Source: Candidatus Phycocordibacter aenigmaticus (GTDB lineage: Bacteria > Patescibacteriota > Minisyncoccia > Phycocordibacterales > Phycocordibacteraceae). From it: DNA of 64,000 nt. The stretch covers positions 122,288 through 186,287 of the forward strand of contig CP174359.1 in NCBI GenBank assembly GCA_045401115.1, read 5' to 3'. Every line of letters starts with the position of its first letter. Position 1 is the stretch's first letter. Of the stretch, positions 13,183-50,327 are shown piece after piece. The notes beneath the pieces are model-generated. The model saw only the letters and a program-made list of their open reading frames with translations, was not told the DNA's origin and made no database searches. Both the position numbers and the translations under genes were made by a program.

Positions 13183-14271
13183 TTATTGCAATGTCGTGGT
13201 CTTTGTAACAGCCGACGTATCTGTCTGTACAATGTTTAGACGAGCACGCCCTATCACTTTCCCACTCGTTGTTTCAACCGACACACGCCAGACTCCTGGC
13301 GCCGGCTGTGTGGTAAATGAGTACCCACGATACCCGCCACTCCTTCCGCCTACAATAGGAAAATGGACCGTATTTTTTGTTACCCACGTCTTTGTCTTGG
13401 TGTTGTAATATTCCCACCGATGCACTACGTCGGTATTAATTTTTGTTGGTGCAAAAACCGCCGTATACACATACGCCGCCTCTCCTGTTGCCAGGCGTAA
13501 CTCATCTCCGGTAAAGTCAAAATATCGTGCTAAGAAGCCGTCTTTTTCCTCTCGTACATGGTAGGTATCACCCACCCGACTCACTTCATAGTAAAAATCA
13601 ATATCTTTAAGCGCCAATGGAATCGGCGGTATCAGATTCGTAACGTACAGCGCCACCATAACGGTCAATACCGCAATACCGGCACGTTTTATCCCCGTTT
13701 GATGCTCCTCGTAAGATTCTTTTGCCACCAAACGCAGTGCGGTGCGAAACAAAGCAAAAACTGCTACGGCGACAATCATGCTAATAACAAACGTGAACGT
13801 GTTAATAGACCCAAACAGAATCGGCAACAGCAACGCCGTATACAACATCAGGTTAAGAAAAAAGAGTGTCGTTTGAAACAATAAACGATACCGCTTCAAT
13901 TTCAGTGCTTCGTTTCCAATGGCAGCCAACGCAACCAACACCAAAAACGGCCAGCTCTGTGCAATAGAACCACTTGCTGAATACAAAATTAAAAATGCCG
14001 AGAGCAGGTTACCCATTGAGTATTGTTGAAGCACCGGTAACCATGACCGTACTTTGGTGAAAAAACTATCCCGCTCCTCAAAAGGAGCAGAAAGTACAAT
14101 AATCGTTCCCGCCACGATACAGATATGGACCGAGAGAATAATGAGCGCGATACTCAGGTTAAGACTGCGGAACGTTATCAGATCAACAAAGAATCCAAAG
14201 ACCAACGCGACCGTCGCGAGGCGATGTTTGTATCGTTGAATGCCGTTTATGAGTTGTTTCATCTGTATCAA
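13183..14271 (-). CDS. Hypothetical polytopic membrane protein with a C-terminal soluble beta-rich domain
   Basis: 362-aa ORF; ~5 TM helices in the N-terminal 210 aa. Confidence 0.5.
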   Translation of the reverse strand: MIQMKQLINGIQRYKHRLATVALVFGFFVDLITFRSLNLSIALIILSVHICIVAGTIIVLSAPFEERDSFFTKVRSWLPVLQQYSMGNLLSAFLILYSASGSIAQSWPFLVLVALAAIGNEALKLKRYRLLFQTTLFFLNLMLYTALLLPILFGSINTFTFVISMIVAVAVFALFRTALRLVAKESYEEHQTGIKRAGIAVLTVMVALYVTNLIPPIPLALKDIDFYYEVSRVGDTYHVREEKDGFLARYFDFTGDELRLATGEAAYVYTAVFAPTKINTDVVHRWEYYNTKTKTWVTKNTVHFPIVGGRSGGYRGYSFTTQPAPGVWRVSVETTSGKVIGRARLNIVQTDTSAVTKTTTLQ

Positions 14272-14511
14272 CTATACCGCTTATTTCACTCCCATAAAAA
14301 TAACTCGCCTGAAGCGAGTTATGTATGGGGTGGGAACGGGATTCGGCGTCAGTGGACTGATGGGAATCTCACTGCTCGGCGTATTCTCGCCTGCGCTCAC
14401 GAAACCCACGGTTTCGTGGACTTCCTCCACGGGGGAACACCCAGTTCCCCCGACCCCCTTTCTGGTTCGAATCCCATCGAACACCGCAGCATTCACTGCG
14501 TTCATGTCTTG

Positions 14512-18150: not shown

Positions 18151-18211
18151 CCTGAAACAAAAAGAGTCCCTGCGGACTCTTTTTGTTTACAGGTGCGAGG
18201 CGCAGGCATAT

Positions 18212-18273
18212 TTCATTTTTGTTGTAATTCGTGACAAAAATGAAAAGCCGAGCCTAGACCAAGCACACTTAGT
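18212..18273 (+). repeat. tRNA-associated mosaic repeat, locus 1 (modules U1 hairpin + U2)
   Basis: ttcatttttgttgtaattcgtgacaaaaatgaa (10-bp stem palindrome) + aagccgagcctagaccaagcacacttagt. Homologous copies at 23818-23972, 31897-32003 (inverted), 19116-19162 and 32117-32230. Confidence 0.7.
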
Positions 18274-19062: not shown

Positions 19063-19115
19063 ACCCACACCTATTTTAAAAATTATTGTAGGAAATCTCA
19101 GTTGGTTTAAAATCA

Positions 19116-19162
19116 TGGTCACCCGTCACTAAGTATAATTGTTCGCCTGCGGCTCCAATTCT
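19116..19162. repeat. tRNA-associated mosaic repeat, locus 2 (inverted U4 + U5)
   Basis: ggtcacccgtcactaagtataattgttcgcctgcggctccaattcta; matches 32117-32165 and the inverse of 23956-23972. Confidence 0.65.
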
Positions 19163-19200
19163 ACAAAACAAAGTTTTGTTTCTTGTAGGAAATCTCACTG

Positions 19201-19295
19201 CTCTGCCTCCTGTTAGGATCGTCCCGGAATAGCGGACTTTTGTAGGCACGCTTCGCGCACCTAAAAAGCTCTCGCTTTCCTGGACGCGGCCTCGA
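19201..19295. repeat. ~90-bp direct repeat copy 1 with a tRNA-Arg(TCT) 3'-end-like segment (att-like)
   Basis: tctgcctcctgttaggatcgtcccggaatagcgg... The first 18 bp match the tRNA-Arg 3' end (tgcctcctgtaggaatcg at 19431-19448) with 1 indel. Confidence 0.6.
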
Positions 19296-19430
19296 ATGTT
19301 TTGCTCCGTGAATTCTCCGCAAAACATATACTCCGGCCGTTCGATTCCTAACGCAAACCAAGAAATTGGTCTGCTCAAAGGCACCTTTAAAGAAAAAATC
19401 GCCAACTGCTTGGCGATTTGTATCTTTGGG

Positions 19431-21987: not shown

Positions 21988-22051
21988 GTATACGTATTAT
22001 ACAGTTCTCTGTGCATTCACTACATACTTTGAATACACACTCCGTATTTTC

Positions 22052-22702
22052 TTACATGCGCAATAAAAGAAATACATTAAACGCGGCTAAAGCAATAACG
22101 CCGCTCATCAACGCAGTAACAATAGTCGTACGTGTAGCAATGCGTCCAAGACGTGGCAACACTGCAATACCAAACATATGTGTAATAGTCGCCACAATAC
22201 CGTAGCGAAGTGTGCGTCCAATAATAGAAGCGAGTATAAAAACAAAGAAATCAACGCGTAATATACCTGCCGCTAAAATAACAGGAGTATACGGTATTGG
22301 TGAAAACGCACCGACAAAAACTCCAACAAATGCATACCCTGCCAAAGCGATTTGGGCATGCGCGAGCGCTTCGCTCCACCCCAGCATCGCAATGAGCGGC
22401 GCAAACACTGTGTCGTACATCGCTATAATTGCTACATACAATGCCGCCGCACCAATGACACTAGTCGTAACTGCAACGAACACTAAGTAAGGGACCCGGC
22501 GTGGGTTAGCTAACACTAACAGTGCCAAGAAAATATCAGTGGGTACCGGCAAAATAACCGATTCAAAAAAAGAATACACACCGAGCCACCATACAGCGAC
22601 TTTTTTCTGTGCCAAACGACGGAACCACTCCCATGAATCACGCACATACAGCGTAATATCAATATCTGTTTTTTTGTTACCTGGATCGGTGTGCTGCATC
22701 AT
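22052..22702 (-). CDS. DedA/YqaA-family (SNARE-associated) membrane protein
   Basis: 216 aa; FFESVILPVPTDIFL motif; multiple TMs. Confidence 0.65.
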   Translation of the reverse strand: MMQHTDPGNKKTDIDITLYVRDSWEWFRRLAQKKVAVWWLGVYSFFESVILPVPTDIFLALLVLANPRRVPYLVFVAVTTSVIGAAALYVAIIAMYDTVFAPLIAMLGWSEALAHAQIALAGYAFVGVFVGAFSPIPYTPVILAAGILRVDFFVFILASIIGRTLRYGIVATITHMFGIAVLPRLGRIATRTTIVTALMSGVIALAAFNVFLLLRM

Positions 22703-23028
22703 TAATGAATTATACTTCCCGGCGGCACTGTTTGTGACACAGTAGGAATAGTCAACGATTCTCCTTCTCCGGTTACCAAAAGCATGCCTTGTGAGGTCAA
22801 CCCACGCAACACACGTGGCGCTAAGTTAGTTACAAACATAAACTGCCGCTCTACCAACTCTTTTGGATCGCAGTACTCAGCAATACCTGAAAGGATTTGA
22901 CGTGGTGTCTCTTCGCCAAGATCAACTTCGAGTCGTAGTAATTTATCGGCACTCGGCACGCGTTCAGCAACCAACACGGTTCCTACACGCAGCTCAACTT
23001 TTGCAAAATCATCAATTGAAATATTCAT
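22702..23028 (-). CDS. tRNA-binding domain protein (CsaA-like), second paralog
   Basis: FAKVELRVGTVLVAERVPSADKLLRLEVDLGEE...FMFVTNLAPR. Confidence 0.7.
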   Translation of the reverse strand: MNISIDDFAKVELRVGTVLVAERVPSADKLLRLEVDLGEETPRQILSGIAEYCDPKELVERQFMFVTNLAPRVLRGLTSQGMLLVTGEGESLTIPTVSQTVPPGSIIH

Positions 23029-23423
23029 ATATCACTCCTATTTAAGTAACTGTTAAGTATTATGGCGGCGGCATGCGCATCAACAACACCATCCCCTTTC
23101 CCTCGCACCCCTTCACTTGCTAAACGACGCGCCTCATGAGAAGTATAAAACTCCGGTTCAAAAAACACCGGGATAGCTGCTTTTTTTTGCAATGACGCAG
23201 CAAAAGCACGGATAGCATCCATCAATTCATTTTCCTCTCCGGTAAGTTTTTTTGACTCACCAATAACTACCCCTTCTACCTCCTCAGCTTCAATCAACGC
23301 AAGCACCTCATCAACAAGAGATGACGTATTGGACAACACAGTTTTAGGAAACGCCATCGTCCCGCGCGCATCGGAAACTGCTACGCCGACACGCTTCGTT
23401 CCATAATCTATACCAAGAAGTTT
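23025..23423 (-). CDS. ruvX: Holliday-junction resolvase-like YqgF/RuvX
   Basis: MKLLGIDYGTKRVGVAVSD motif. Confidence 0.85.
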   Translation of the reverse strand, partial: KLLGIDYGTKRVGVAVSDARGTMAFPKTVLSNTSSLVDEVLALIEAEEVEGVVIGESKKLTGEENELMDAIRAFAASLQKKAAIPVFFEPEFYTSHEARRLASEGVRGKGDGVVDAHAAAIILNSYLNRSDI

Positions 23424-23685
23424 CATTCCTTTGGGTGTCTGTATGTCGTGCTCAAACATAATTAAGATGCTTTCGTTCTTCAGTATACCGCAGGCAGAGT
23501 TACGGTATAAAAACTACCATTGGCTTTTCCTTAGGGGCGCTCTGTGGTAATCTCGTGGTACCCCGCTCCCGTAAGCAGAGCTTGCGTGAGCGTGTGGTAA
23601 GGCACTATGCTCCCGTAAGAAAATCTTTCGGGAGCTGCACTCGAAGGTCATGTGAGAGCACGCTCTCCCGCGACCCTTCTCGTTT

Positions 23686-23757
23686 GCTCCCGTAGTTTAA
23701 TGGATAAAATATCGGTTTGCGGTACCGACGCTCCAGGTTCGACTCCTGGCGGGAGCA
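23686..23757 (+). tRNA. tRNA-Arg with an unusual GCG anticodon
   Basis: GCTCCCGTAGTTTAATGGATAAAATATCGGTTTGCGGTACCGACGCTCCAGGTTCGACTCCTGGCGGGAGCA; anticodon stem TCGGT/ACCGA, loop TTGCGGT. The D-arm is shared with tRNA-Arg(TCT). Confidence 0.65.
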
Positions 23758-23817
23758 CAAAGACAAAAATCACCAACTGCTTGGTGATTTTTCGCTTTGT
23801 GCTAGGCGGAGGCATGT

Positions 23818-23972
23818 TTCATTTTTGTTGTAATTCGTGACAAAAATAAAAAGCCTTGAGTGTATTCGCTTCGCTCTCACGGGTAAAAGCTACCTGCTGT
23901 CGCTTTTACCGGGTCGAGCGCACTTAGTATTTTTAGAACGTAGTGAATAAAAATAGTTAGTGACGGGTGACC
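23818..23972 (+). repeat. tRNA-associated mosaic repeat, locus 3 (U1-U2-U3-U4, with a ~60-bp insertion in U2)
   Basis: ttcatttttgttgtaattcgtgacaaaaataaa...gagcgcacttagtatttttagaacgtagtgaataaaaatagttagtgacgggtgacc; reverse-complement homolog at 31897-32003. Confidence 0.7.
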
Positions 23973-24101
23973 ACAAAATTAAAACTGCCTGAAGAGGTGG
24001 TTTTTTAATAGTGATCCCGTCAGGAGTCGAACGGGAAAGGGATCGGGAAAACACGTTGTTTCCCCGTGGAGGAAGTGGTGACGATTGAGTAAATCAAAGA
24101 A

Positions 24102-24878
24102 TCAAGCTGTCTTTGCTGTACTCATTAAGTCACTAAGTCTTATTTCCTTTTGTTTCAAACGACCGTCTTGATGAAAACCAGTAATTGCATTTATGGTTTC
24201 ATTTTGATCAATCTGTTCAAGATATTCTTTTGCGTACAAATTAAGTGCTGTAAGAAGTCCGTCGCCCATATCATGAGAAGTAACTTCTACAACAATCTTA
24301 TTCTGGCCATTTATTCTCTCTTGTTGGAAATATTTAACTGTTCGTAGTGAATCAAGTCTTTCAAAAAACAAATGTATGGTTCCATTTCTTGTTGTTAACA
24401 AAGGGGTTTCATTATGATGACACAAATTGCGTATATCCATTTCGATTTTAAACCAATCCTCATTTTCAATATATCTAGTACATAAAGTGCCAGTAATCCT
24501 ATCATCAATTACTTTGAGCAAATCGTAAATACTATGAACAGTATTTAAGTACGCCTCCATAGAGGCCATCCATCTATGCTCAAAACGATAAGGGTTTATA
24601 TTACGTCTCATGTTCTGATTAAGTACTTTCCTTTCTAGTTTCTGCATCTCACCAACCTGGTATCTCATTTGTTCGACTCTTTTATTTAAGTCTTGCATGA
24701 TGTATTTCATATCTTCGTTACCACCACGACGACGGTTAGTAACTAAATTTTGACCAAAATAATAAAAGAGGTCTAGAAATGTAAACTGGTCTTTTTTTAT
24801 AAAACTATAAATACTAATATCAGGAACTAAAACAACTAGTCTTTGCCCATCTGTGGTTGTTCCAATTATTTTTTTCAT
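24102..24878 (-). CDS. Hypothetical cytoplasmic protein (258 aa) on a low-GC islet
   Basis: Long ORF in an AT-rich (~30% GC) segment; no recognisable motif. Confidence 0.5.
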   Translation of the reverse strand: MKKIIGTTTDGQRLVVLVPDISIYSFIKKDQFTFLDLFYYFGQNLVTNRRRGGNEDMKYIMQDLNKRVEQMRYQVGEMQKLERKVLNQNMRRNINPYRFEHRWMASMEAYLNTVHSIYDLLKVIDDRITGTLCTRYIENEDWFKIEMDIRNLCHHNETPLLTTRNGTIHLFFERLDSLRTVKYFQQERINGQNKIVVEVTSHDMGDGLLTALNLYAKEYLEQIDQNETINAITGFHQDGRLKQKEIRLSDLMSTAKTA

Positions 24879-24962
24879 ATCTATATTCTATAATAAATAA
24901 CCTCAGCAACAGCCCGACATGGGGGGGGTAGGAATCCCGCTTCCCGAGGCTGGCGCCTAATT

Positions 24963-25538
24963 TTAAAAACAGACCAGAGAGCCAAGTAGTGAAAATGTAC
25001 CTAAAATCATCAAGATATAAACTATCTGAGAATAAATTTGAGGTGCTTTTCGGTCACTGTCATTTTTAAAAAGATTGATGGACTTTTTATCAGTTTCATT
25101 AAGGTTAATAAAATCCTGTTTACTAATTTTTTTAGTCTCAAGCCAATTATTATATAGAATTAAAAACTTCTCATTTCTTGTGTTGTAAAAGTCGGAATAT
25201 TTTTTACGCTCTGCCTCAATATCATTAAATTCAGCTTGGTATTTCTGTTGCACCCACCACAACCCATAGAATAGCCCTCCGAGAAGCAAGACTTCCCCCG
25301 CCATGAATAAAGACATAGTTTTTACAAAGTCTAAGGCTGTAAAACCAAAACCCGCAATTAAACCAATTACCCCAATCACGGTTGTGGCAAATCCTATTGA
25401 TTTGAAATAGACATCTAACTGCTTCGTGCCTAAATCGCCAAATATTTCACTTTGTAATCGAAAATTACTTGAACCAAACGATTCATAAAATTCTTTAAAT
25501 TCTTCATCATTTAGACTAATTTTATCTTCTGTGTTCAT
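24963..25538 (-). CDS. Hypothetical membrane protein (191 aa, ~3 TM) on a low-GC islet
   Basis: TM segments TTVIGVIGLIAGFGFTAL, MSLFMAGEVLLLGGLFYGLWW and a C-terminal IVYILMILGTFSLLGSLVCF. Confidence 0.45.
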   Translation of the reverse strand: MNTEDKISLNDEEFKEFYESFGSSNFRLQSEIFGDLGTKQLDVYFKSIGFATTVIGVIGLIAGFGFTALDFVKTMSLFMAGEVLLLGGLFYGLWWVQQKYQAEFNDIEAERKKYSDFYNTRNEKFLILYNNWLETKKISKQDFINLNETDKKSINLFKNDSDRKAPQIYSQIVYILMILGTFSLLGSLVCF

Positions 25539-25600
25539 AATCTAATTCTACCGCAACACAAGAAAATATCTGCCAACAAGCTCCCTCGAGCCAACTCTAT

Positions 25601-25627
25601 GTGACGGAGGGAGTGGGATTCACTGCA
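25601..25627. repeat. Direct repeat of the tRNA-Ser 3' end (att-like)
   Basis: gacggagggagtgggattcactgcacc versus tRNA 25749-25771 tgcggagggagtgggattcgaaccc. A more degenerate copy ccgtggaggaagtggtgacgatt lies at ~24057-24079. Confidence 0.6.
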
Positions 25628-25748
25628 CCGCTACATTTTCTAATCGCTTCACTCAAGAAAATCTACGCTCCCAGCACCTTGCTTCTCATCCCACTGCTCC
25701 TTATATAAAACAAAAGAACTGGCGCGAAGCCAGTTCTTTTGTTTAATG

Positions 25749-25835
25749 CGGAGGGAGTGGGATTCGAACCCACGGACCCCGTTAAGGGTCTCTGGTTTTC
25801 AAGACCAGCGCCTTCGACCACTCAGCCATCCCTCC
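25749..25835 (-). tRNA. tRNA-Ser (anticodon TGA), long variable arm
   Basis: Revcomp GGAGGGATGGCTGAGTGGTCGAAGGCGCTGGTCTTGAAAACCAGAGACCCTTAACGGGGTCCGTGGGTTCGAATCCCACTCCCTCCG. Confidence 0.85.
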
Positions 25836-25846
25836 TTTCGTAAACC

Positions 25847-26119
25847 TTATTCAGGTTTGGTCTCTTCTGTGCCAACATCCTCTTTAAGAGCAGGTCGGCC
25901 TACTGCAAAGATATAGATTATTTCAAGAATTGCAACCGTGTTTAAAACTAGAATGGCAACGAACCACCATTTGTGACGATTCCGCGCCGCAACCCATAAC
26001 GCATATCCTTTCCATGGCAATGTCCATAGCGCAATAAAAAGAAGGGTCCACATTGTTTCAGTTCCAAACATGTGGGGCTGATTATAGCACCAAGCACCAA
26101 AGGGTACCAGAGAAATCAC
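25847..26119 (-). CDS. Small hypothetical membrane protein (2 TM)
   Basis: 90-aa ORF; hydrophobic W-rich helices. Confidence 0.35.
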   Translation of the reverse strand: MISLVPFGAWCYNQPHMFGTETMWTLLFIALWTLPWKGYALWVAARNRHKWWFVAILVLNTVAILEIIYIFAVGRPALKEDVGTEETKPE

Positions 26120-26127
26120 TCTCTATT

Positions 26128-26625
26128 TTACAAACCAATAGCGCGGGCAATATTGTCGGTAATAGTTTCAAGTGAATCAATCTCGTCAATACTTCTATTC
26201 TTTAGTTCAGTGCGTATTAGACGATAATCCACATCTTTCAGAGGAATAGATGTAGTTCCTAATAACGTATCGGTGGCAATCACTAAAGCAGGCACCGGCT
26301 CATCTTCTTCGTGAATAGCAAACGCGCGTATTTTATTCCATGGAATAATTTGAGCATCAATATGTACTCCCGCATCACTCAACGCATAGCTGTGCATCCT
26401 ATCCGGTCGTGTACCCGCAAGCATAATGGTAAAGCCGCCAAGTACGATCAGCACTCCTAAAAGAGTGTTACCTAAAATAATACTCGATAACGCAGCTCCC
26501 ACAGAAATAATACCGACTGTCCAGTACCAGTTAGAAGTCTTTGGTGCACATCCATCTTCCTTTGCTCGCCACGCTACGTTTTTTTCCATACGTATATTGT
26601 AACGTGTGTTTTTCTCTTGCACCAT
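26128..26625 (-). CDS. Hypothetical membrane protein (2 TM near the N-terminus)
   Basis: 165-aa ORF. Confidence 0.4.
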   Translation of the reverse strand: MVQEKNTRYNIRMEKNVAWRAKEDGCAPKTSNWYWTVGIISVGAALSSIILGNTLLGVLIVLGGFTIMLAGTRPDRMHSYALSDAGVHIDAQIIPWNKIRAFAIHEEDEPVPALVIATDTLLGTTSIPLKDVDYRLIRTELKNRSIDEIDSLETITDNIARAIGL

Positions 26626-26655
26626 TAAAAAACCCGACAGTCGTCGGGTTTTTTA

Positions 26656-26919
26656 TTATGCTGCTGATTTTTTAAGTTGTGCTGAAAGGCGAGATTTTTT
26701 TCGAGAACCGGTGTTCTTTTTGATAATGCCGCGTTTTACTGCTTTATCGATTGCCTTCTGAGCGGTAGATAGTGCAGCATTTTGTGTCGCACGATCTTTG
26801 CCAAGAGCTGCTGTAGCCTCTTTTACCGCTGACGCCATAGCACGTCGTACGCGTAGATTAAAAACACGCTTCCGTTCCTGAGAGCGAATTGCTTTCTGTG
26901 CGCTTTTGATAGTAGCCAT
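26656..26919 (-). CDS. rpsT: Ribosomal protein S20
   Basis: MATIKSAQKAIRSQERKRVFNLRVRRAM... Confidence 0.85.
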   Translation of the reverse strand: MATIKSAQKAIRSQERKRVFNLRVRRAMASAVKEATAALGKDRATQNAALSTAQKAIDKAVKRGIIKKNTGSRKKSRLSAQLKKSAA

Positions 26920-27001
26920 ATGTAGAGACTAGACTAGCGCATTATTCCCCTATAATCAAGCATATATAGAGGGACTCATATGATGCTGATACAATGGGTC
27001 C

Positions 27002-42547: not shown

Positions 42548-42661
42548 ATACTTTATACAGTTTAGATATAATGTGTTGTAGTATAGAGTGTTGCACTGAA
42601 AAACAGCACGAAAATTGAAAAGAACAAAATACCTTTATTTTTCATACTGTTTTATAGCTCT

Positions 42662-42690
42662 ATTGACAAATATTTTGTCAATATATATTG
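42662..42690 (+). promoter_or_regulatory. Promoter-like TTGACA...tatata region containing the perfect 19-bp palindrome TTGACAAATATTTTGTCAA; candidate autoregulatory operator for the downstream HTH regulator
   Basis: tattgacaaatattttgtcaatatatattg immediately upstream of the ATG at 42699. Confidence 0.5.
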
Positions 42691-42698
42691 TACAAGTC

Positions 42699-43406
42699 AT
42701 GATTCTACTTGATGAACTGGACAACAAAATACTTTCTCTTATTAGTAAACAGGAGCTTCACCCGTCTGAAATGGCGCGTCAGCTTGGAATATTAAGAACT
42801 ACCGTTCAGTATCGTCTTAAGAAAATCGAAGAATTTGGACTTGCTCAAAAAAGAATATCGGGGAGAAAAACATTATGGTCAGTAGCAGTTCGCACAGAAC
42901 ATAACAAAAGTCATTTTAAAGTCTACAGAGGCGCCGACTTCGTTCAATCATATAAACAGCTCCTTTCTCTGCCGGCTCATGCAACAATTTTTGCAATACA
43001 AGGAAGCAAGGCGGCAAAGGGCGAACTCAATACACTTCCAGCTGAATTTATTAAAGAATCTCATAAAATTCTCAAAAGGAAAAAGATTATTTTAAAAGGC
43101 GTTACTAATGAAAAAACACTTCGCGTGTTCACCGGCACCAATAAATCGCTCATGCAATCGCATATTGGGAGGACGCTTGGTATTAAGCTTTTTCAAGACA
43201 ATCATTTTTTAGGAGCCGGCGAAATTCTCTCTACAAAGAAGCTACTACTCCTATCAAATCCAGTTGCTAAGCAGGCGATAGTTATTAAAGACAAAGGAAT
43301 TGCCGAAATTATACATGACACGTTGGATTTAATATTTGAAGTGCTTGATGGAAAAAATACTTTTGATCTCAATAGTTATTTACGTAATAAAATTACATCA
43401 AAATAA
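42699..43406 (+). CDS. Lrp/AsnC-type winged-helix HTH transcription regulator with a C-terminal domain of unknown function (low-GC)
   Basis: MILLDELDNKILSLISKQELHPSEMARQLGILRTTVQYRLKKIEEFGL. Confidence 0.55.
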   Translation: MILLDELDNKILSLISKQELHPSEMARQLGILRTTVQYRLKKIEEFGLAQKRISGRKTLWSVAVRTEHNKSHFKVYRGADFVQSYKQLLSLPAHATIFAIQGSKAAKGELNTLPAEFIKESHKILKRKKIILKGVTNEKTLRVFTGTNKSLMQSHIGRTLGIKLFQDNHFLGAGEILSTKKLLLLSNPVAKQAIVIKDKGIAEIIHDTLDLIFEVLDGKNTFDLNSYLRNKITSK

Positions 43407-47671: not shown

Positions 47672-48772
47672 CTACTTGTTCATTGGCATTACAAGGTAAG
47701 TAAACCCCTTATCAGGAACCTCACTAATAATAAGCGGCTTCCCAACTCCGGAGAATTTAAACACCAAACTATCAGTCACCACTGTACTTAATGCATCAAG
47801 AATATACCGTATATTAAAATTAACTTGGATAGGTTCACCTTCAAGTGCAGCATCAACAGACTCTCTACTTTCACCAACTTGTGTATTAACACCATTTACT
47901 GAAAGCAGTTTACTTGAAGGGTCTAAGTTAAACGCCACCTGCCCCGCCTGGTCGGTTACCACAGCAACCTTTTTTAAAGCCCGTTGCAGGTCTTCAGTAA
48001 GTAATGTCGCTGTGGTGGTGAAATCTTTTGGGATAATTGCAGTGTACTCAGGAAAAGCACCGTCGATCACCCGTGATGTTATAAAATTCCCATCACTCAT
48101 ATAGGTAACCTGGTTTTCACCAACACGAACCTCAACAGTATCAGTCCTCTCAATAACCCGTAAAATATCCGGTATATTACGGGCCGGAAGAAGGATCGAA
48201 TCAATATTATTCTTCACTTTTATATCAGCTTTTATTTCAGATAGACGAAAAGAGTCTGTTGCGGCGGTTATCAACATCCCATCTTGGACTGTAAGAAAAA
48301 CACTCGCTAACTCAGGACGCATACCTGAGGTTGCTGCCGCAAAAACAACACCCTTAAGGGAACGAGAAAATTCCTTCACAGGAAGTGTCAAAGATACCCC
48401 CTCTCCTTCTTTTACACAGGGTAAGGTGGGGAAATCACTCACATCAATAGTGTTTAGTTTTACCTCACCGTGACCAGTAATAATTTTTAATATCCCCTCA
48501 TCACTTTCGAGGGTTATTTTTTCATCCGAAATAGCATTAACTGCCTGACTAAATACATGCGCCGGGACAGCGACATCCCCTTCTTTAACAACCTTTGACT
48601 TTAGAGCAATTTCAACACTCACATCAAGATTGGTTGCTCTTAGTGTTGTTTTATTTTGTGTTGCCGATATAACCACACACCCCAATACTGGTAATGATAA
48701 ATTTTTATTACTCACTCGAGAAACTATTTGAGTTGCGTCTTCTAAATGTTTTTTTAATAATTCTAATTTCAT
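47672..48772 (-). CDS. dnaN: DNA polymerase III beta sliding clamp
   Basis: 366 aa; three-domain clamp pattern. Confidence 0.9.
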   Translation of the reverse strand: MKLELLKKHLEDATQIVSRVSNKNLSLPVLGCVVISATQNKTTLRATNLDVSVEIALKSKVVKEGDVAVPAHVFSQAVNAISDEKITLESDEGILKIITGHGEVKLNTIDVSDFPTLPCVKEGEGVSLTLPVKEFSRSLKGVVFAAATSGMRPELASVFLTVQDGMLITAATDSFRLSEIKADIKVKNNIDSILLPARNIPDILRVIERTDTVEVRVGENQVTYMSDGNFITSRVIDGAFPEYTAIIPKDFTTTATLLTEDLQRALKKVAVVTDQAGQVAFNLDPSSKLLSVNGVNTQVGESRESVDAALEGEPIQVNFNIRYILDALSTVVTDSLVFKFSGVGKPLIISEVPDKGFTYLVMPMNK

Positions 48773-48979
48773 ATACTTTTTATTTTTATACTCTGTGAGA
48801 TGTGTGGATTACAGTTTATATCTTTAAAGTTAAGGCTGTATTCACAAAGGTGTGCTGGGTAACGGTGTGTGTAAGTCTTGTGAATAACAAACCAGTAAAA
48901 CAGAAAAAGTTGTACACAAAACAATTAACATATTTTTTAGATTGGTTATACCGATAGTTATTCATATACTCTTCCACAG

Positions 48980-50327
48980 TTATTTCAACATGCTACGCAC
49001 TTCTCCAATTTCATTTTTGAAATCTTCGTTACCACTAAGGTCTGTTTTTATTTTTTCACAGGCATGAATAACAGTAGTGTGGTCGCGCCCACCAAAGACA
49101 GAACCAATTGCAGGGTATGAGAGATGAAAATCTTCTCGAAGTATGTACATAATTATTTGCCGAGGGCGAACTATTTCGCGTTTTCGTGTTTTTGCATACA
49201 TAGATGCCTCTTCAACACCATAAAACTCAGCAACTTTTCCTATAATGTTTTTCACAGAAACAGAGCGCTTTGGTTTAGTGGTTGATTTAATAACATCTTT
49301 TATGGCGGTATCATTTAACTCACTATTGAGTTGAGTTTGTATAAGGATGGTGTTGAGCATCCCTTCAATCTCTCTAATATTACCGGTAATTGCCAAAGAA
49401 AGGTGTTCAATAATTTCGTCGCTTAAATTAAGGCCAATTGAGTTTGCTTTGGTTTTAATAATAGCCATACGTGACTCATGGTCGGGTTCTTGTATTGCAA
49501 CAGTCATGCCAGAGACAAAACGTGACTGGAGGCGGTCAGTAAGATCAGGAATAAGATTAGGGTGTTCGATCTGATGAACACACAATTTGTTTGTTACAGT
49601 CATGTAGTGTGTTGAAGAGATGGAAAAACTCTTCCTGAAGCGTCCCTTTTTTCGAGAAAAACTGTATATCATCCATAATTAATACATCATAGGCACGATA
49701 CTTCTCTTTAAAAGTGGGGATGGTGCGATTATTAATCGCATTCATAAATTCAAAACCAAACCGTTCTGCGGTAAGGTAGTACACTTTTTTTTGAGCGACT
49801 GTTTTTTTAATATGATTCCCCACACTTTGTATTAAGTGTGTTTTTCCACGCCCTGTTTCTCCATAAATAAAGAGTGGGTTATATGAAATGCCTGGGTTTT
49901 TTGCTACTGCACTTGCCCCAGCGAATGCAATTTCATTAAATGGACCAACCACAAAAGTATCAAATGTATATCGCGGGTTAAGGTTATCTGATCGATTAAC
50001 ATAATAATCAGCTAACGGGAGTTCAGAACCACTCTTTTCTTCAGTAGGAACTTTTTCAGGCACTCGTTTCGGTTCTTGTTTTGAAACAACATATTCAATA
50101 CCGCGCACTGTATCTACAAACCCTCTGATGGTTTTTAAAATAAGCTTTCCGAAACGCTCGGAAAGCCATTCTTTAGTAAGTTGATTCGGTACACCAACGT
50201 ATACCACTCCCCCTTCTATACGGATAATATGTGTTTCGCCAAACCACATTTTAAAACTTGCTGGGGAAATTGAGAGTTCAATGTTGGTCAAAGTGTTTTC
50301 CCAAAGCTGTTTTGTATCAAGTTCCAT
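48980..50327 (-). CDS. dnaA: Chromosomal replication initiator DnaA, interrupted by an apparent +1 frameshift at a CCC run near 49557-49560 (ORFs 49557..50327 and 48980..49672 overlap)
   Basis: N-terminal ORF has GETGRGKTHL and MDDIQFF...KQIVCSSDRTP*; the other frame continues PNLIPDLTDRLQSRF...and the C-terminal DNA-binding domain. Removing one C restores canonical SDRTP-NLIPDLT-DRLQSRF spacing. Confidence 0.85.

What the first reader, a model, noticed from the sequence alone, without database searches (positions are those of the whole stretch)
24000..25745. Low-GC two-gene islet between tRNA-Arg and tRNA-Ser with nested att-like tRNA-Ser repeats
About 1.6 kb of conspicuously AT-rich DNA (~30% GC versus ~45-50% around it) carries a 258-aa soluble protein and a 191-aa three-TM membrane protein with no recognisable motifs. 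It is bounded by the tRNA-Ser 3' end (25749-25771), an 18/19 direct repeat of it (25604-25622) and a degenerate third copy (~24057-24079). It starts right after the U1-U4 mosaic repeat. The composition, tRNA insertion site, att-like repeats and a soluble-plus-membrane gene pair are typical of a horizontally acquired defence, abortive-infection or toxin-like module whose mobilisation genes have been lost. The cargo is a candidate uncharacterised system.
Basis: partly seen in the sequence, partly recalled or inferred. Interest (0 to 1): 0.6.

Follow-up and report, generated by a model that had tools for sequence, protein, structure and literature searches.

The report
Foreign two-gene islet beside tRNA-Ser
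A 1.5-kb AT-rich insert next to a serine tRNA gene in a Patescibacteria genome carries two unrelated imported genes, a probable HEPN-type RNA-cutting toxin or anti-phage protein and a membrane protein of unknown role; they are not a paired system, so this is a fairly ordinary genomic islet.

Summary
The low-GC islet is real. ORF-A (24102-24878, 258 aa) and ORF-B (24963-25538, 191 aa, three hydrophobic segments) have 33% GC against 44% for the window. They are the two lowest-GC ORFs of 63.

Both genes look horizontally acquired:
- Relatives lack both at this site.
- ORF-A is 84% nucleotide-identical to a gene downstream of tRNA-Ser(UGA) in another organism, whose tRNA is only 79% identical.
- Homologues of both genes sit in low-GC patches of unrelated hosts.
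- In relatives, the same tRNA-Ser 3' flank holds large serine recombinases, Fic genes and other variable cargo.

The two genes never co-occur elsewhere (7 ORF-A contexts, 5 ORF-B contexts), so they are not a two-gene system.

ORF-A belongs to a small unannotated family with an invariant D...W...R-N-x-x-x-H (Rx4H) signature. It aligns in register with the AbiF catalytic motif, and its helical bundle resembles HEPN toxins weakly. It fails the Abi_2 membership tests. ORF-B's function is unknown.

The 17-nt tRNA-Ser repeat is real. It is one part of a recurrent module (terminator, inverted copy, direct copy) that follows many tRNAs in this lineage. The claimed third copy is a repeat unit shared with the tRNA-His flank, not a tRNA-Ser att site.

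The parts
23686..23758 (+). tRNA-Arg(GCG), convergent with tRNA-Ser; left anchor of the variable interval
   Evidence: ARAGORN; Rfam tRNA 62.4 bits
23759..24076 (+). tRNA-Arg 3'-flank mosaic repeat block, native rather than part of the islet. It contains a bidirectional terminator hairpin (23754-23803) and repeat units also found behind tRNA-Val, tRNA-Arg(TCT) and tRNA-Lys. It also holds an inverted 20/22 copy of the tRNA-Arg 3' end (24011-24032) and a unit shared with the tRNA-His flank (24011-24076).
   Evidence: Inverted repeats I1, I2, I4, I6. Hits 23912-23971 = 31958-31899 at 97% and 23799-23855 = 18193-18249 at 93%. Alignment to 14490-14420 ends at 24076. Homology to L011 7926-8065.
24077..25565 (-). 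Low-GC islet proper (about 1.5 kb): ORF-A, an 84-bp GC-rich spacer and ORF-B. The left junction is sharp at 24076/24077. The right junction lies between the ORF-B start (25538) and the direct repeat (25605).
   Evidence: GC 0.348, z -3.5; junction; composition profile
24102..24878 (-). ORF-A, 258 aa, soluble; candidate HEPN-like (Rx4H) nuclease of an unannotated family; cargo gene 1
24879..24962 (-). GC-rich (50%) spacer between the two cargo genes; the junction of two separately derived modules. Contains a G-rich, tRNA-3'-end-like stretch (24905-24950).
   Evidence: GC. Homology with L001 begins at 24891. 12/17 match on each strand, not significant. The fold is no better than shuffles, z = 0.24.
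24963..25538 (-). ORF-B, 191 aa, three hydrophobic segments; long helical-hairpin membrane protein of a conserved Patescibacteria family; function unknown; cargo gene 2
25605..25621 (-). Exact 17-nt direct copy of the tRNA-Ser 3' end (acceptor 3' strand plus T-arm 3' half); the 'direct copy' of the tRNA-Ser flank module
   Evidence: the repeat finder D1; unique in the 128 kb searched
25678..25697 (-). Degenerate inverted copy of the tRNA-Ser 3' end; pairs with the direct copy to close a ~95-nt hairpin
   Evidence: I19; RNA fold of 25590-25750, z = -3.1; same layout in L034
25705..25747 (-). Strong bidirectional terminator-like hairpin immediately 3' of tRNA-Ser
   Evidence: I3, 19-nt arms 95% complementary; fold
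25748..25835 (-). tRNA-Ser(UGA), whose 3' flank is the insertion hot spot
   Evidence: ARAGORN. The DUF5652 gene followed by tRNA-Ser(UGA) is conserved in about 33 related loci, with variable content downstream.

Best explanation
The islet (about 24077-25565) is a recombinase-less remnant of horizontally acquired cargo. It lodged in the variable interval downstream of tRNA-Ser(UGA), between the 3'-flank repeat modules of the convergent tRNA-Ser and tRNA-Arg(GCG) genes. It consists of two independently travelling single-gene modules joined at an 84-bp GC-rich junction.

ORF-A most likely encodes a stand-alone HEPN-type ribonuclease (catalytic R150/H155), acting as a toxin or abortive-infection effector. 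Its C-terminal alpha/beta domain (residues ~160-254) would be a candidate sensor or regulatory part. ORF-B is an unrelated three-segment membrane protein with a long cytoplasmic helical hairpin; its role is unknown. There is no evidence that it works with ORF-A.

Shown: foreign composition, patchy distribution, gene-limited DNA homology to another tRNA-Ser island, hot-spot behaviour of the site, and no conserved pairing of the two genes.

Inferred: the HEPN RNase activity, any defence role, and delivery by a serine-recombinase element whose recombinase was later lost.
For: Composition:
- ORF-A and ORF-B have 32.9% and 32.6% GC against 44.2% for the window. They are the two lowest of 63 ORFs, and the islet is at z = -3.5.

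Horizontal transfer:
- ORF-A is 84% nt-identical to L001 over 24112-24891 only. The adjacent tRNA-Ser genes of the two organisms are 79% identical, so the protein gene is more alike than the tRNA.
- In L001 the homologue also lies downstream of tRNA-Ser(UGA).
- ORF-A homologues sit in low-GC patches: L110 30% vs 46%, L111 30% vs 35-37%.
- ORF-B homologues do too: L004 45.5% vs 66.4%, L009 39.7% vs 57.4%.

Hot spot:
- The order DUF5652 gene, tRNA-Ser(UGA), variable DNA, ~150-177-aa conserved gene, tRNA-Arg(GCG) recurs in metagenome relatives. The Ser-to-Arg gap ranges from 886 to 4152 bp and its contents are mostly singletons.
- No relative has ORF-A or ORF-B at this site.
- Large serine recombinases abut the tRNA-Ser 3' end in L054 and L055. 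Fic genes lie there in L034 and L063.
- The recombinase next to ORF-A homologue P0047 in L015 clusters with those of L054 and L055.

No pairing:
- 7 ORF-A contexts and 5 ORF-B contexts share no neighbour.

HEPN reading of ORF-A:
- R150-x4-H155 is invariant across 23 sequences down to 19% identity.
- Pfam Abi_2 hits at E = 0.009, matching the C-terminal motif region of the profile. One family member hits HEPN_Apea at E = 0.023.
- hhalign places R150/H155 on AbiFCd R202/H207. Those residues are aligned there with R210/H215 of PbAbiF, whose double-alanine variant is inactive (PMC12373285).
- The profile-profile match to 10 Abi proteins has P = 0.006, with D...W...RNxCxH in register.
- Abi2/AbiD/AbiF are classed as HEPN domains (PMC3710099).
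Against: - HEPN assignment is weak by every individual measure. Pfam is below the gathering score (16.8 vs 25.6 bits). The hhalign probability is 6% over 41 columns.
- The solved AbiF structure 8vz6 is absent from both top lists.
- No PADLOC, PHROGs or NCBIfam hit. No relatives were found in IMG/VR viral contigs.
- No antitoxin-like partner and no abiF RNA motif were seen.
- No recombinase, and no flanking direct repeats of the islet itself, are present in the window, so the route of arrival is inferred from relatives.
- The closest comparators are distant (RuvX 55-57%, DUF5652 at most 82% identical). Recent presence/absence within the species is untested.
Confidence: 0.6

Rival explanations
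1. The two genes form one functional two-component system: a soluble effector or sensor plus a membrane partner or effector. It would have been acquired as a unit.
For: The genes are adjacent, on the same strand, and have the same GC. One other ORF-A homologue (L110) is flanked by non-homologous membrane proteins. Membrane-associated HEPN architectures exist (PMC3710099).
Against: No ORF-B homologue lies next to any of 7 ORF-A homologues, and none the other way round. DNA homology to L001 stops 13 nt upstream of ORF-A. A GC-rich junction separates the genes. Membrane neighbours occur in only 2 of 7 ORF-A contexts.
Confidence: 0.1
2. The cargo is real HGT, but ORF-A is not a nuclease or defence gene. 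It would be some other accessory protein of mobile elements (for example a regulator or structural protein), and the Rx4H match is coincidental.
For: All HEPN evidence is sub-threshold. No known defence model hits. No antitoxin or immunity partner is seen. 8vz6 is not among the fold hits.
Against: R and H at fixed spacing, with D125 and P159, are the only invariant residues across a family diverged to ~20% identity. That pattern is what an active site looks like. The motif aligns in register with AbiF's catalytic residues. Neighbours include DUF4238, a GajB-like UvrD helicase and recombinases, which are typical variable/defence-island company.
Confidence: 0.3
3. The islet arrived without a site-specific recombinase. 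The conserved tRNA genes and the highly repeated tRNA-flank modules would have served as homology anchors, or as folded recombination sites, for cassette capture from related Patescibacteria.
For: There is no recombinase and there are no islet-flanking direct repeats in the window. The islet sits exactly between two flank modules, with a sharp junction at 24076. Module units are 93-97% identical at several loci in the window. The gene order around the tRNAs is rearranged relative to relatives. ORF-B homologue P0005 in L004 is followed by a tRNA-Ser-like 3' fragment.
Against: Large serine recombinases sit precisely at this tRNA-Ser 3' end in L054 and L055, and next to an ORF-A homologue in L015. 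That gives a simpler route. No donor with module-flanked ORF-A or ORF-B was found.
Confidence: 0.3
4. The two genes are native, lineage-specific genes whose low GC reflects function or local mutation bias, not transfer.
For: No mobility gene is present in the window. Patescibacteria genomes are full of unannotated small genes.
Against: The genes are absent from the equivalent interval in all ~33 related loci. ORF-A is more similar to a gene in a foreign organism than the adjacent tRNAs are to each other. Homologues of both genes are compositional outliers in several unrelated hosts.
Confidence: 0.05

Closest known systems
AbiD/AbiD1/AbiF abortive-infection proteins (Pfam Abi_2, PF07751; HEPN superfamily; solved structure 8vz6)
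   Same: Single-protein modules on mobile DNA. They share the signature D...W...R-N-x-C/x-x-H with R-x4-H spacing, aligned in register. The weak Pfam hit is to the motif-bearing C-terminal part of the profile. They occur in variable or mobile contexts (PMC12373285).
Minimal HEPN toxins of HEPN-MNT toxin-antitoxin pairs (e.g. 7ae2, 8xdj, 5yep, 6m6w)
tRNA-associated genomic islands / integrative elements (here driven by large serine recombinases)
   Same: Insertion lies directly 3' of a tRNA gene, with foreign composition and variable cargo at the same site in relatives. Recombinases abut the same tRNA in L054 and L055.
   Different: The window has no recombinase. The only exact tRNA repeat is 126 bp from the tRNA, on the proximal side of the cargo. 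The distal border has no tRNA-Ser copy.
Integron gene cassettes with folded attC sites
   Same: Small, promoter-poor, single-gene units in one orientation lie next to imperfect palindromic modules of about 95-190 nt.
   Different: No IntI-type integrase was seen. No search for attC R/L box motifs was run. The palindromes copy the neighbouring tRNA's 3' end and occur behind tRNAs that have no cassettes. This is an analogy only.

Membership tests
Pfam Abi_2 (AbiD/AbiF) | Score at or above the Pfam gathering threshold (25.6 bits) | tested here: not met
   16.8 bits, E = 0.009 for ORF-A. Only 1 of 23 family members hits at E <= 0.1.
Pfam Abi_2 (AbiD/AbiF) | Conserved catalytic R-N-x-x-x-H (R202/H207 in AbiFCd) | tested here: met
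   R150-N-L-C-H-H155 is invariant in the family and is aligned onto AbiF R202/H207.
Pfam Abi_2 (AbiD/AbiF) | Profile-profile similarity across the domain | tested here: inconclusive
   hhalign A1 vs A3: P = 0.0061, probability 6%, only 41 columns.
Pfam Abi_2 (AbiD/AbiF) | Fold similarity to the solved AbiF structure (8vz6) | tested here: not met
AbiF-type RNA-regulated systems | Associated abiF ncRNA motif (Rfam RF03085) upstream | tested here: not met
   No RF03085 match at E <= 1 in 22000-27000. Upstream spacers in L001 and L015 are only ~40 nt.
HEPN superfamily | Rx4-6H motif conserved in an all-alpha up-down bundle | tested here: inconclusive
HEPN superfamily | Metal-independent RNase activity dependent on R and H | not testable with these tools
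   Needs biochemistry.
HEPN-MNT type II/VII toxin-antitoxin | Adjacent MNT nucleotidyltransferase antitoxin | tested here: not met
   No such neighbour in the window or in the 7 homologue contexts.
Known anti-phage systems (PADLOC-DB v2) | HMM match to a catalogued defence protein | tested here: not met
   No hits for ORF-A, ORF-B, P0002, P0020, P0021, P0044, P0047 or P0049. The only hit among the proteins scanned is the L016 helicase to GajB-type UvrD models.
tRNA-integrated genomic island | Located at the 3' end of a tRNA gene with deviant composition | tested here: met
tRNA-integrated genomic island | Direct repeat of the tRNA 3' end at the distal border of the island | tested here: not met
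   The exact repeat (25605-25621) is proximal. The distal candidate (24057-24079) is a tRNA-His/Arg flank repeat unit.
tRNA-integrated genomic island | Integrase/recombinase gene within the island | tested here: not met
   None in 24000-25745. Present at the same site in L054 and L055, and beside P0047 in L015.
tRNA-integrated genomic island | Presence/absence polymorphism among relatives | tested here: met
   Neither gene is in the Ser-Arg interval, or within 4 kb downstream of tRNA-Ser, in ~33 related loci. Only distant relatives were available.

The most novel reading that the evidence does not exclude
The palindromic modules behind tRNA genes in this lineage (terminator, inverted copy, then direct copy of the tRNA's own 3' end, with shared spacer units) might be folded recombination sites of a cassette-capture or tRNA-targeting mini-element system in Patescibacteria. 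On that reading the islet is a two-cassette array lodged between two such modules. Its first cassette, ORF-A, would found a previously undescribed stand-alone HEPN abortive-infection family found in these ultra-small bacteria and at least one other host.
Probability: 0.12. Interest if true: 0.75.

Novelty: new member of a known kind. Interest (0 to 1): 0.38.

Why it matters
Few catalogued defence systems are found in Patescibacteria/CPR genomes (my own background knowledge, not tested here). An unannotated, horizontally mobile protein family with a HEPN-like active site would add a candidate toxin or abortive-infection gene to that short list, and it can be tested with two point mutants.

The work also shows that tRNA-Ser(UGA) is a recurrent landing site in this lineage, used by serine-recombinase elements. 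It further shows that the 'att-like' repeats near tRNAs here mostly belong to a separate, unexplained family of tRNA-flank modules. That matters for anyone calling islands by tRNA repeats in these genomes.

As an islet, it is otherwise ordinary.

Tried and rejected
- PADLOC, PHROGs and NCBIfam scans of both proteins and of homologues' neighbours gave no informative hits.
- Foldseek against the PDB for ORF-A found nothing below E = 0.19.
- The AFDB50 fold library was unavailable.
- Viral-contig scans for both families found no relatives. The ORF-A alignment was too divergent to seed a scan.
- A profile search of PDB sequences with the ORF-A family gave only a spurious Cag3 hit at E = 0.029.
- Lactococcal plasmid pNP40 (DQ534432) was not in the plasmid collection. 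AbiF was taken from phage phiC2 and plasmid homologues instead.
- I first read the inverted tRNA-Arg-like fragment (24011-24032) and the 24068 11-mer as island borders. I rejected this after the alignment with the tRNA-His flank.
- I considered the GC-rich spacer 24879-24962 as a structured RNA or antitoxin. Its fold is no better than shuffles and it is absent from L001.
- I looked for conserved neighbours of ORF-B homologues and found none.
- Direct repeats of the tRNA-Ser 3' end in L004, L006 and L055 were not found beyond a diverged fragment in L004.
Full report
**1. What is at the coordinates**

The window comes from a Patescibacteria genome. The ORF products are identical to ACJKTH_00745 and ACJKTH_00750 of 'Patescibacteria group bacterium UBA2163', on a 721-kb contig. 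tRNA-Arg(GCG) lies at 23686-23758 (+) and tRNA-Ser(UGA) at 25748-25835 (-), so the two genes converge.

Between them are two minus-strand ORFs: ORF-A (24102-24878, 258 aa) and ORF-B (24963-25538, 191 aa). Their GC is 32.9% and 32.6%, against 44.2% for the window. They are the two lowest-GC ORFs of 63, and the islet is the lowest-GC 1.6-kb stretch of the window at z = -3.5. ORF-B has three hydrophobic segments and ORF-A has none.

The 17-nt repeat 25605-25621 = 25749-25765 is exact and unique in the window. The core observation therefore stands, with somewhat exaggerated GC figures.

**2. The surroundings change how the repeats should be read**

The 126 bp between tRNA-Ser and its repeat contain three things. 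There is a strong terminator hairpin (25705-25747). There is a degenerate inverted copy of the tRNA 3' end (~25678-25697). That inverted copy pairs with the direct copy to close a ~95-nt hairpin.

The same layout (tRNA, terminator, inverted copy of its own 3' end, 55-140 nt, direct copy) follows other tRNAs:
- tRNA-His and tRNA-Arg(TCT) in this window.
- tRNA-Ser in L034.
- tRNA-Arg genes in L011, L053, L074 and L095.

I scored 68 tRNAs with clean flanks for copies of their own 3' 24-mer at alignment score 24 or more. Downstream, 10 had direct copies and 8 had inverted copies. Upstream, none had either. The spacers share units across tRNAs and across genomes.

That unit aligns with the tRNA-His flank (14490-14420), and the homology stops exactly at 24076. 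So the third copy is a flank-repeat unit belonging to the tRNA-Arg side.

This defines a sharp left junction of the islet at 24076/24077. The islet proper (~24077-25565) is sandwiched between the flank modules of the two convergent tRNAs. It has no flanking direct repeats of its own. What the modules are remains unexplained.

**3. The DNA is foreign**

ORF-A has an 86%-identical homologue, P0002, in three metagenome contigs. There it lies downstream of a tRNA-Ser(UGA), between a DUF4238 gene and a 265-aa gene. Nucleotide identity is 84% and is confined to 24112-24891, that is, the gene plus 13 nt upstream. The neighbouring tRNA-Ser genes are only 79% identical. A protein gene more alike than the adjacent tRNA is hard to explain without transfer.

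Other ORF-A relatives sit in low-GC patches of hosts with higher GC: L110 at 30% vs 46%, and L111 at 30% vs 35-37%. The L111 contig encodes sigma-54, a sigma-54 activator, histidine kinases and a response regulator, which I read as a non-CPR host, though its taxonomy was not checked. ORF-B relatives behave the same way: L004 at 45.5% vs 66.4%, and L009 at 39.7% vs 57.4%.

**4. The site is a hot spot**

I used the conserved DUF5652 gene next to tRNA-Ser as a probe. In 80 metagenome loci, ~33 carry DUF5652 followed by tRNA-Ser(UGA). Many continue with variable DNA, then a conserved ~150-177-aa gene, then tRNA-Arg(GCG).

The Ser-to-Arg gap varies from 886 to 4152 bp and its genes are mostly singletons. 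None is an ORF-A or ORF-B homologue. Directly behind tRNA-Ser I found:
- Large serine recombinases in L054 and L055, with the stop codon abutting the tRNA 3' end.
- Fic/DOC proteins in L034 and L063.
- A HAD hydrolase, a DKNYY protein and others.

ORF-A homologue P0047 lies beside a large serine recombinase that clusters with those of L054 and L055. In the two genome relatives found (L010 and L011, RuvX 55-57% identical), tRNA-Ser is followed by other genes. The window's gene order is also rearranged relative to the common arrangement: the 165-aa gene sits upstream of DUF5652, and tRNA-Arg is inverted.

**5. Not a pair**

None of the 7 ORF-A contexts contains an ORF-B homologue. None of the 5 ORF-B contexts contains an ORF-A homologue. 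No other neighbour is shared either. Membrane proteins flank ORF-A homologues only in the window and in L110, and those proteins are unrelated to each other. The 84-bp GC-rich spacer (24879-24962) is the seam between two modules. It does not fold better than shuffles.

**6. ORF-A**

An exhaustive HMMER search found 28 representatives. In an alignment of 23 sequences reaching down to 19% identity, only D125, R150, H155 and P159 are invariant. That gives R-N/x-x-x-x-H, an Rx4H motif.

Sequence evidence for a HEPN relationship:
- Pfam gives a sub-threshold Abi_2 hit (E = 0.009) to the C-terminal part of the profile, which includes the motif region.
- One family member hits HEPN_Apea at E = 0.023.
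- hhalign against AbiF of phage phiC2 aligns only the motif, but places R150/H155 on R202/H207. Those residues correspond to the catalytic pair mutated in PbAbiF (PMC12373285).
- Against a 10-sequence Abi alignment the match extends to 41 columns, with D...W...RNxCxH in register, at P = 0.006.
- Abi2/AbiD/AbiF are recognised HEPN domains (PMC3710099).

Structural evidence:
- The AF2 model is confident (pLDDT 86.9, pTM 0.86). It has a helical core (residues 34-155) followed by an alpha/beta C-terminal domain.
- Foldseek finds nothing significant.
- The solved AbiF structure 8vz6 does not appear in either list.

I conclude that ORF-A probably works like a HEPN RNase (about 60%) but is not a member of Abi_2. 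No MNT antitoxin, no abiF RNA motif and no PADLOC model is associated with it. One homologue precedes a GajB-like UvrD helicase.

**7. ORF-B**

ORF-B belongs to a well-conserved family of 17 homologues, with 59% mean column identity and 30 invariant columns. These include the motifs DxYFKSIGF and IAGFGFT in the first hydrophobic segment. The named members are from Paceibacterota and Harrisonbacteria.

The model is a long helical hairpin whose tip forms two membrane segments, plus a C-terminal third segment. Fold neighbours are generic, and no family library recognises it beyond weak noise.

Its homologues also lie near tRNA-Ser genes, or fragments of them, in L004 and L006 and possibly L009. 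I cannot assign a function. I treat ORF-B as independent cargo.

**8. Verdict**

This is a small, recombinase-less, horizontally acquired islet at a tRNA-Ser hot spot. It carries one plausible HEPN-like toxin or abortive-infection gene from an unannotated family and one unrelated membrane-protein gene.

The 'nested att repeats' and 'two-gene system' interpretations do not. As an islet it is a new member of a known kind. The more unusual item is the family of tRNA-flank modules seen in passing.

Noticed in passing
window 14325-14509, 19080-19428, 23759-24076, 25605-25747; also L011 7775-7925, L034 2084-2293, L053, L074, L095: Many tRNA genes in this lineage are followed by a module: terminator hairpin, an inverted copy of the tRNA's own 3' end (+20 to +80), then a direct copy (+130 to +230). 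Among 68 tRNAs with clean flanks there were 10 direct and 8 inverted copies downstream and none upstream. The copies co-vary with the tRNA, while the spacers share units across tRNAs and genomes. Their nature is unknown.
   Followed up: partly
window 23799-23855 = 18193-18249 (93%); 23912-23971 = 31958-31899 (97%); 23957-23973 = 19132-19116; motif CTTAGTGACGGGTGACC: Mosaic repeat units are shared between the 3' flanks of tRNA-Val, tRNA-Arg(TCT), tRNA-Arg(GCG) and tRNA-Lys. The same block follows tRNA-Arg(TCT) in L011.
   Followed up: partly
window 23565-23591 and 23609-23635: Two copies of the tRNA-Arg(GCG) 5' end (GCTCCCGTAAG) lie upstream of the gene. The second forms an acceptor-stem-like mini-hairpin, GCTCCCG...CGGGAGC.
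   Followed up: no
L022 4802-5065: Four tandem 78-bp repeats lie downstream of tRNA-Arg(GCG). Each ends with the tRNA's last 13 nt (TTACCGGGAGCAC).
   Followed up: no
L054 4659-5788, L055 6502-7997: Large serine recombinase genes have their stop codon abutting the 3' end of tRNA-Ser(UGA). They are followed in L055 by low-GC unannotated genes, so this is likely an intact integrative element at the same site as the islet.
   Followed up: partly
L016 94-2885: An ORF-A family member (P0049) lies directly upstream of a 630-aa UvrD-type helicase that matches PADLOC GajB models (E = 2e-46). This could be a HEPN-like plus helicase pair.
   Followed up: no
L004 6667-6684: A tRNA-Ser-like 3' fragment (GAATCCCTCACCCTCCGC) lies 28 nt after the ORF-B homologue. 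It matches the local tRNA-Ser(GGA) 15/18 and the window's tRNA-Ser(UGA) 16/18. A motif AAAAAGTATCGGA(C)AGACCCGA recurs upstream of the ORF-B homologues in L006 and L009, and in L004 directly after tRNA-Ser, upstream of the intervening Ser_hydrolase gene.
   Followed up: partly
window 26128-26625 versus L010 6951-7409 and 14 metagenome loci: In relatives, the conserved ~150-177-aa membrane protein sits between tRNA-Ser and tRNA-Arg(GCG). In the window it lies upstream of DUF5652 and tRNA-Arg is inverted. This indicates local rearrangement, possibly through the flank repeats.
   Followed up: partly
window 47672-50327: dnaN (47672-48772) and a DnaA-domain ORF (49557-50327) lie in the second-lowest-GC part of the window (~36%). 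This is presumably the replication-origin region, although the cumulative GC skew I ran did not extend this far.
   Followed up: no
window 42615-43406: A 263-aa ORF with 35% GC, the third lowest in the window, has only weak winged-helix/HTH hits. It may be another acquired gene.
   Followed up: no
window 13337-13349: A short plus-strand stretch, CCACTCCTTCCGC, resembles the tRNA-Ser acceptor 3' strand (10/11 of the core 11-mer). It lies in the 13.3-14.3-kb stretch I took from the raw sequence to be a long minus-strand ORF (no ORF call was run there), so it is probably chance.
   Followed up: no
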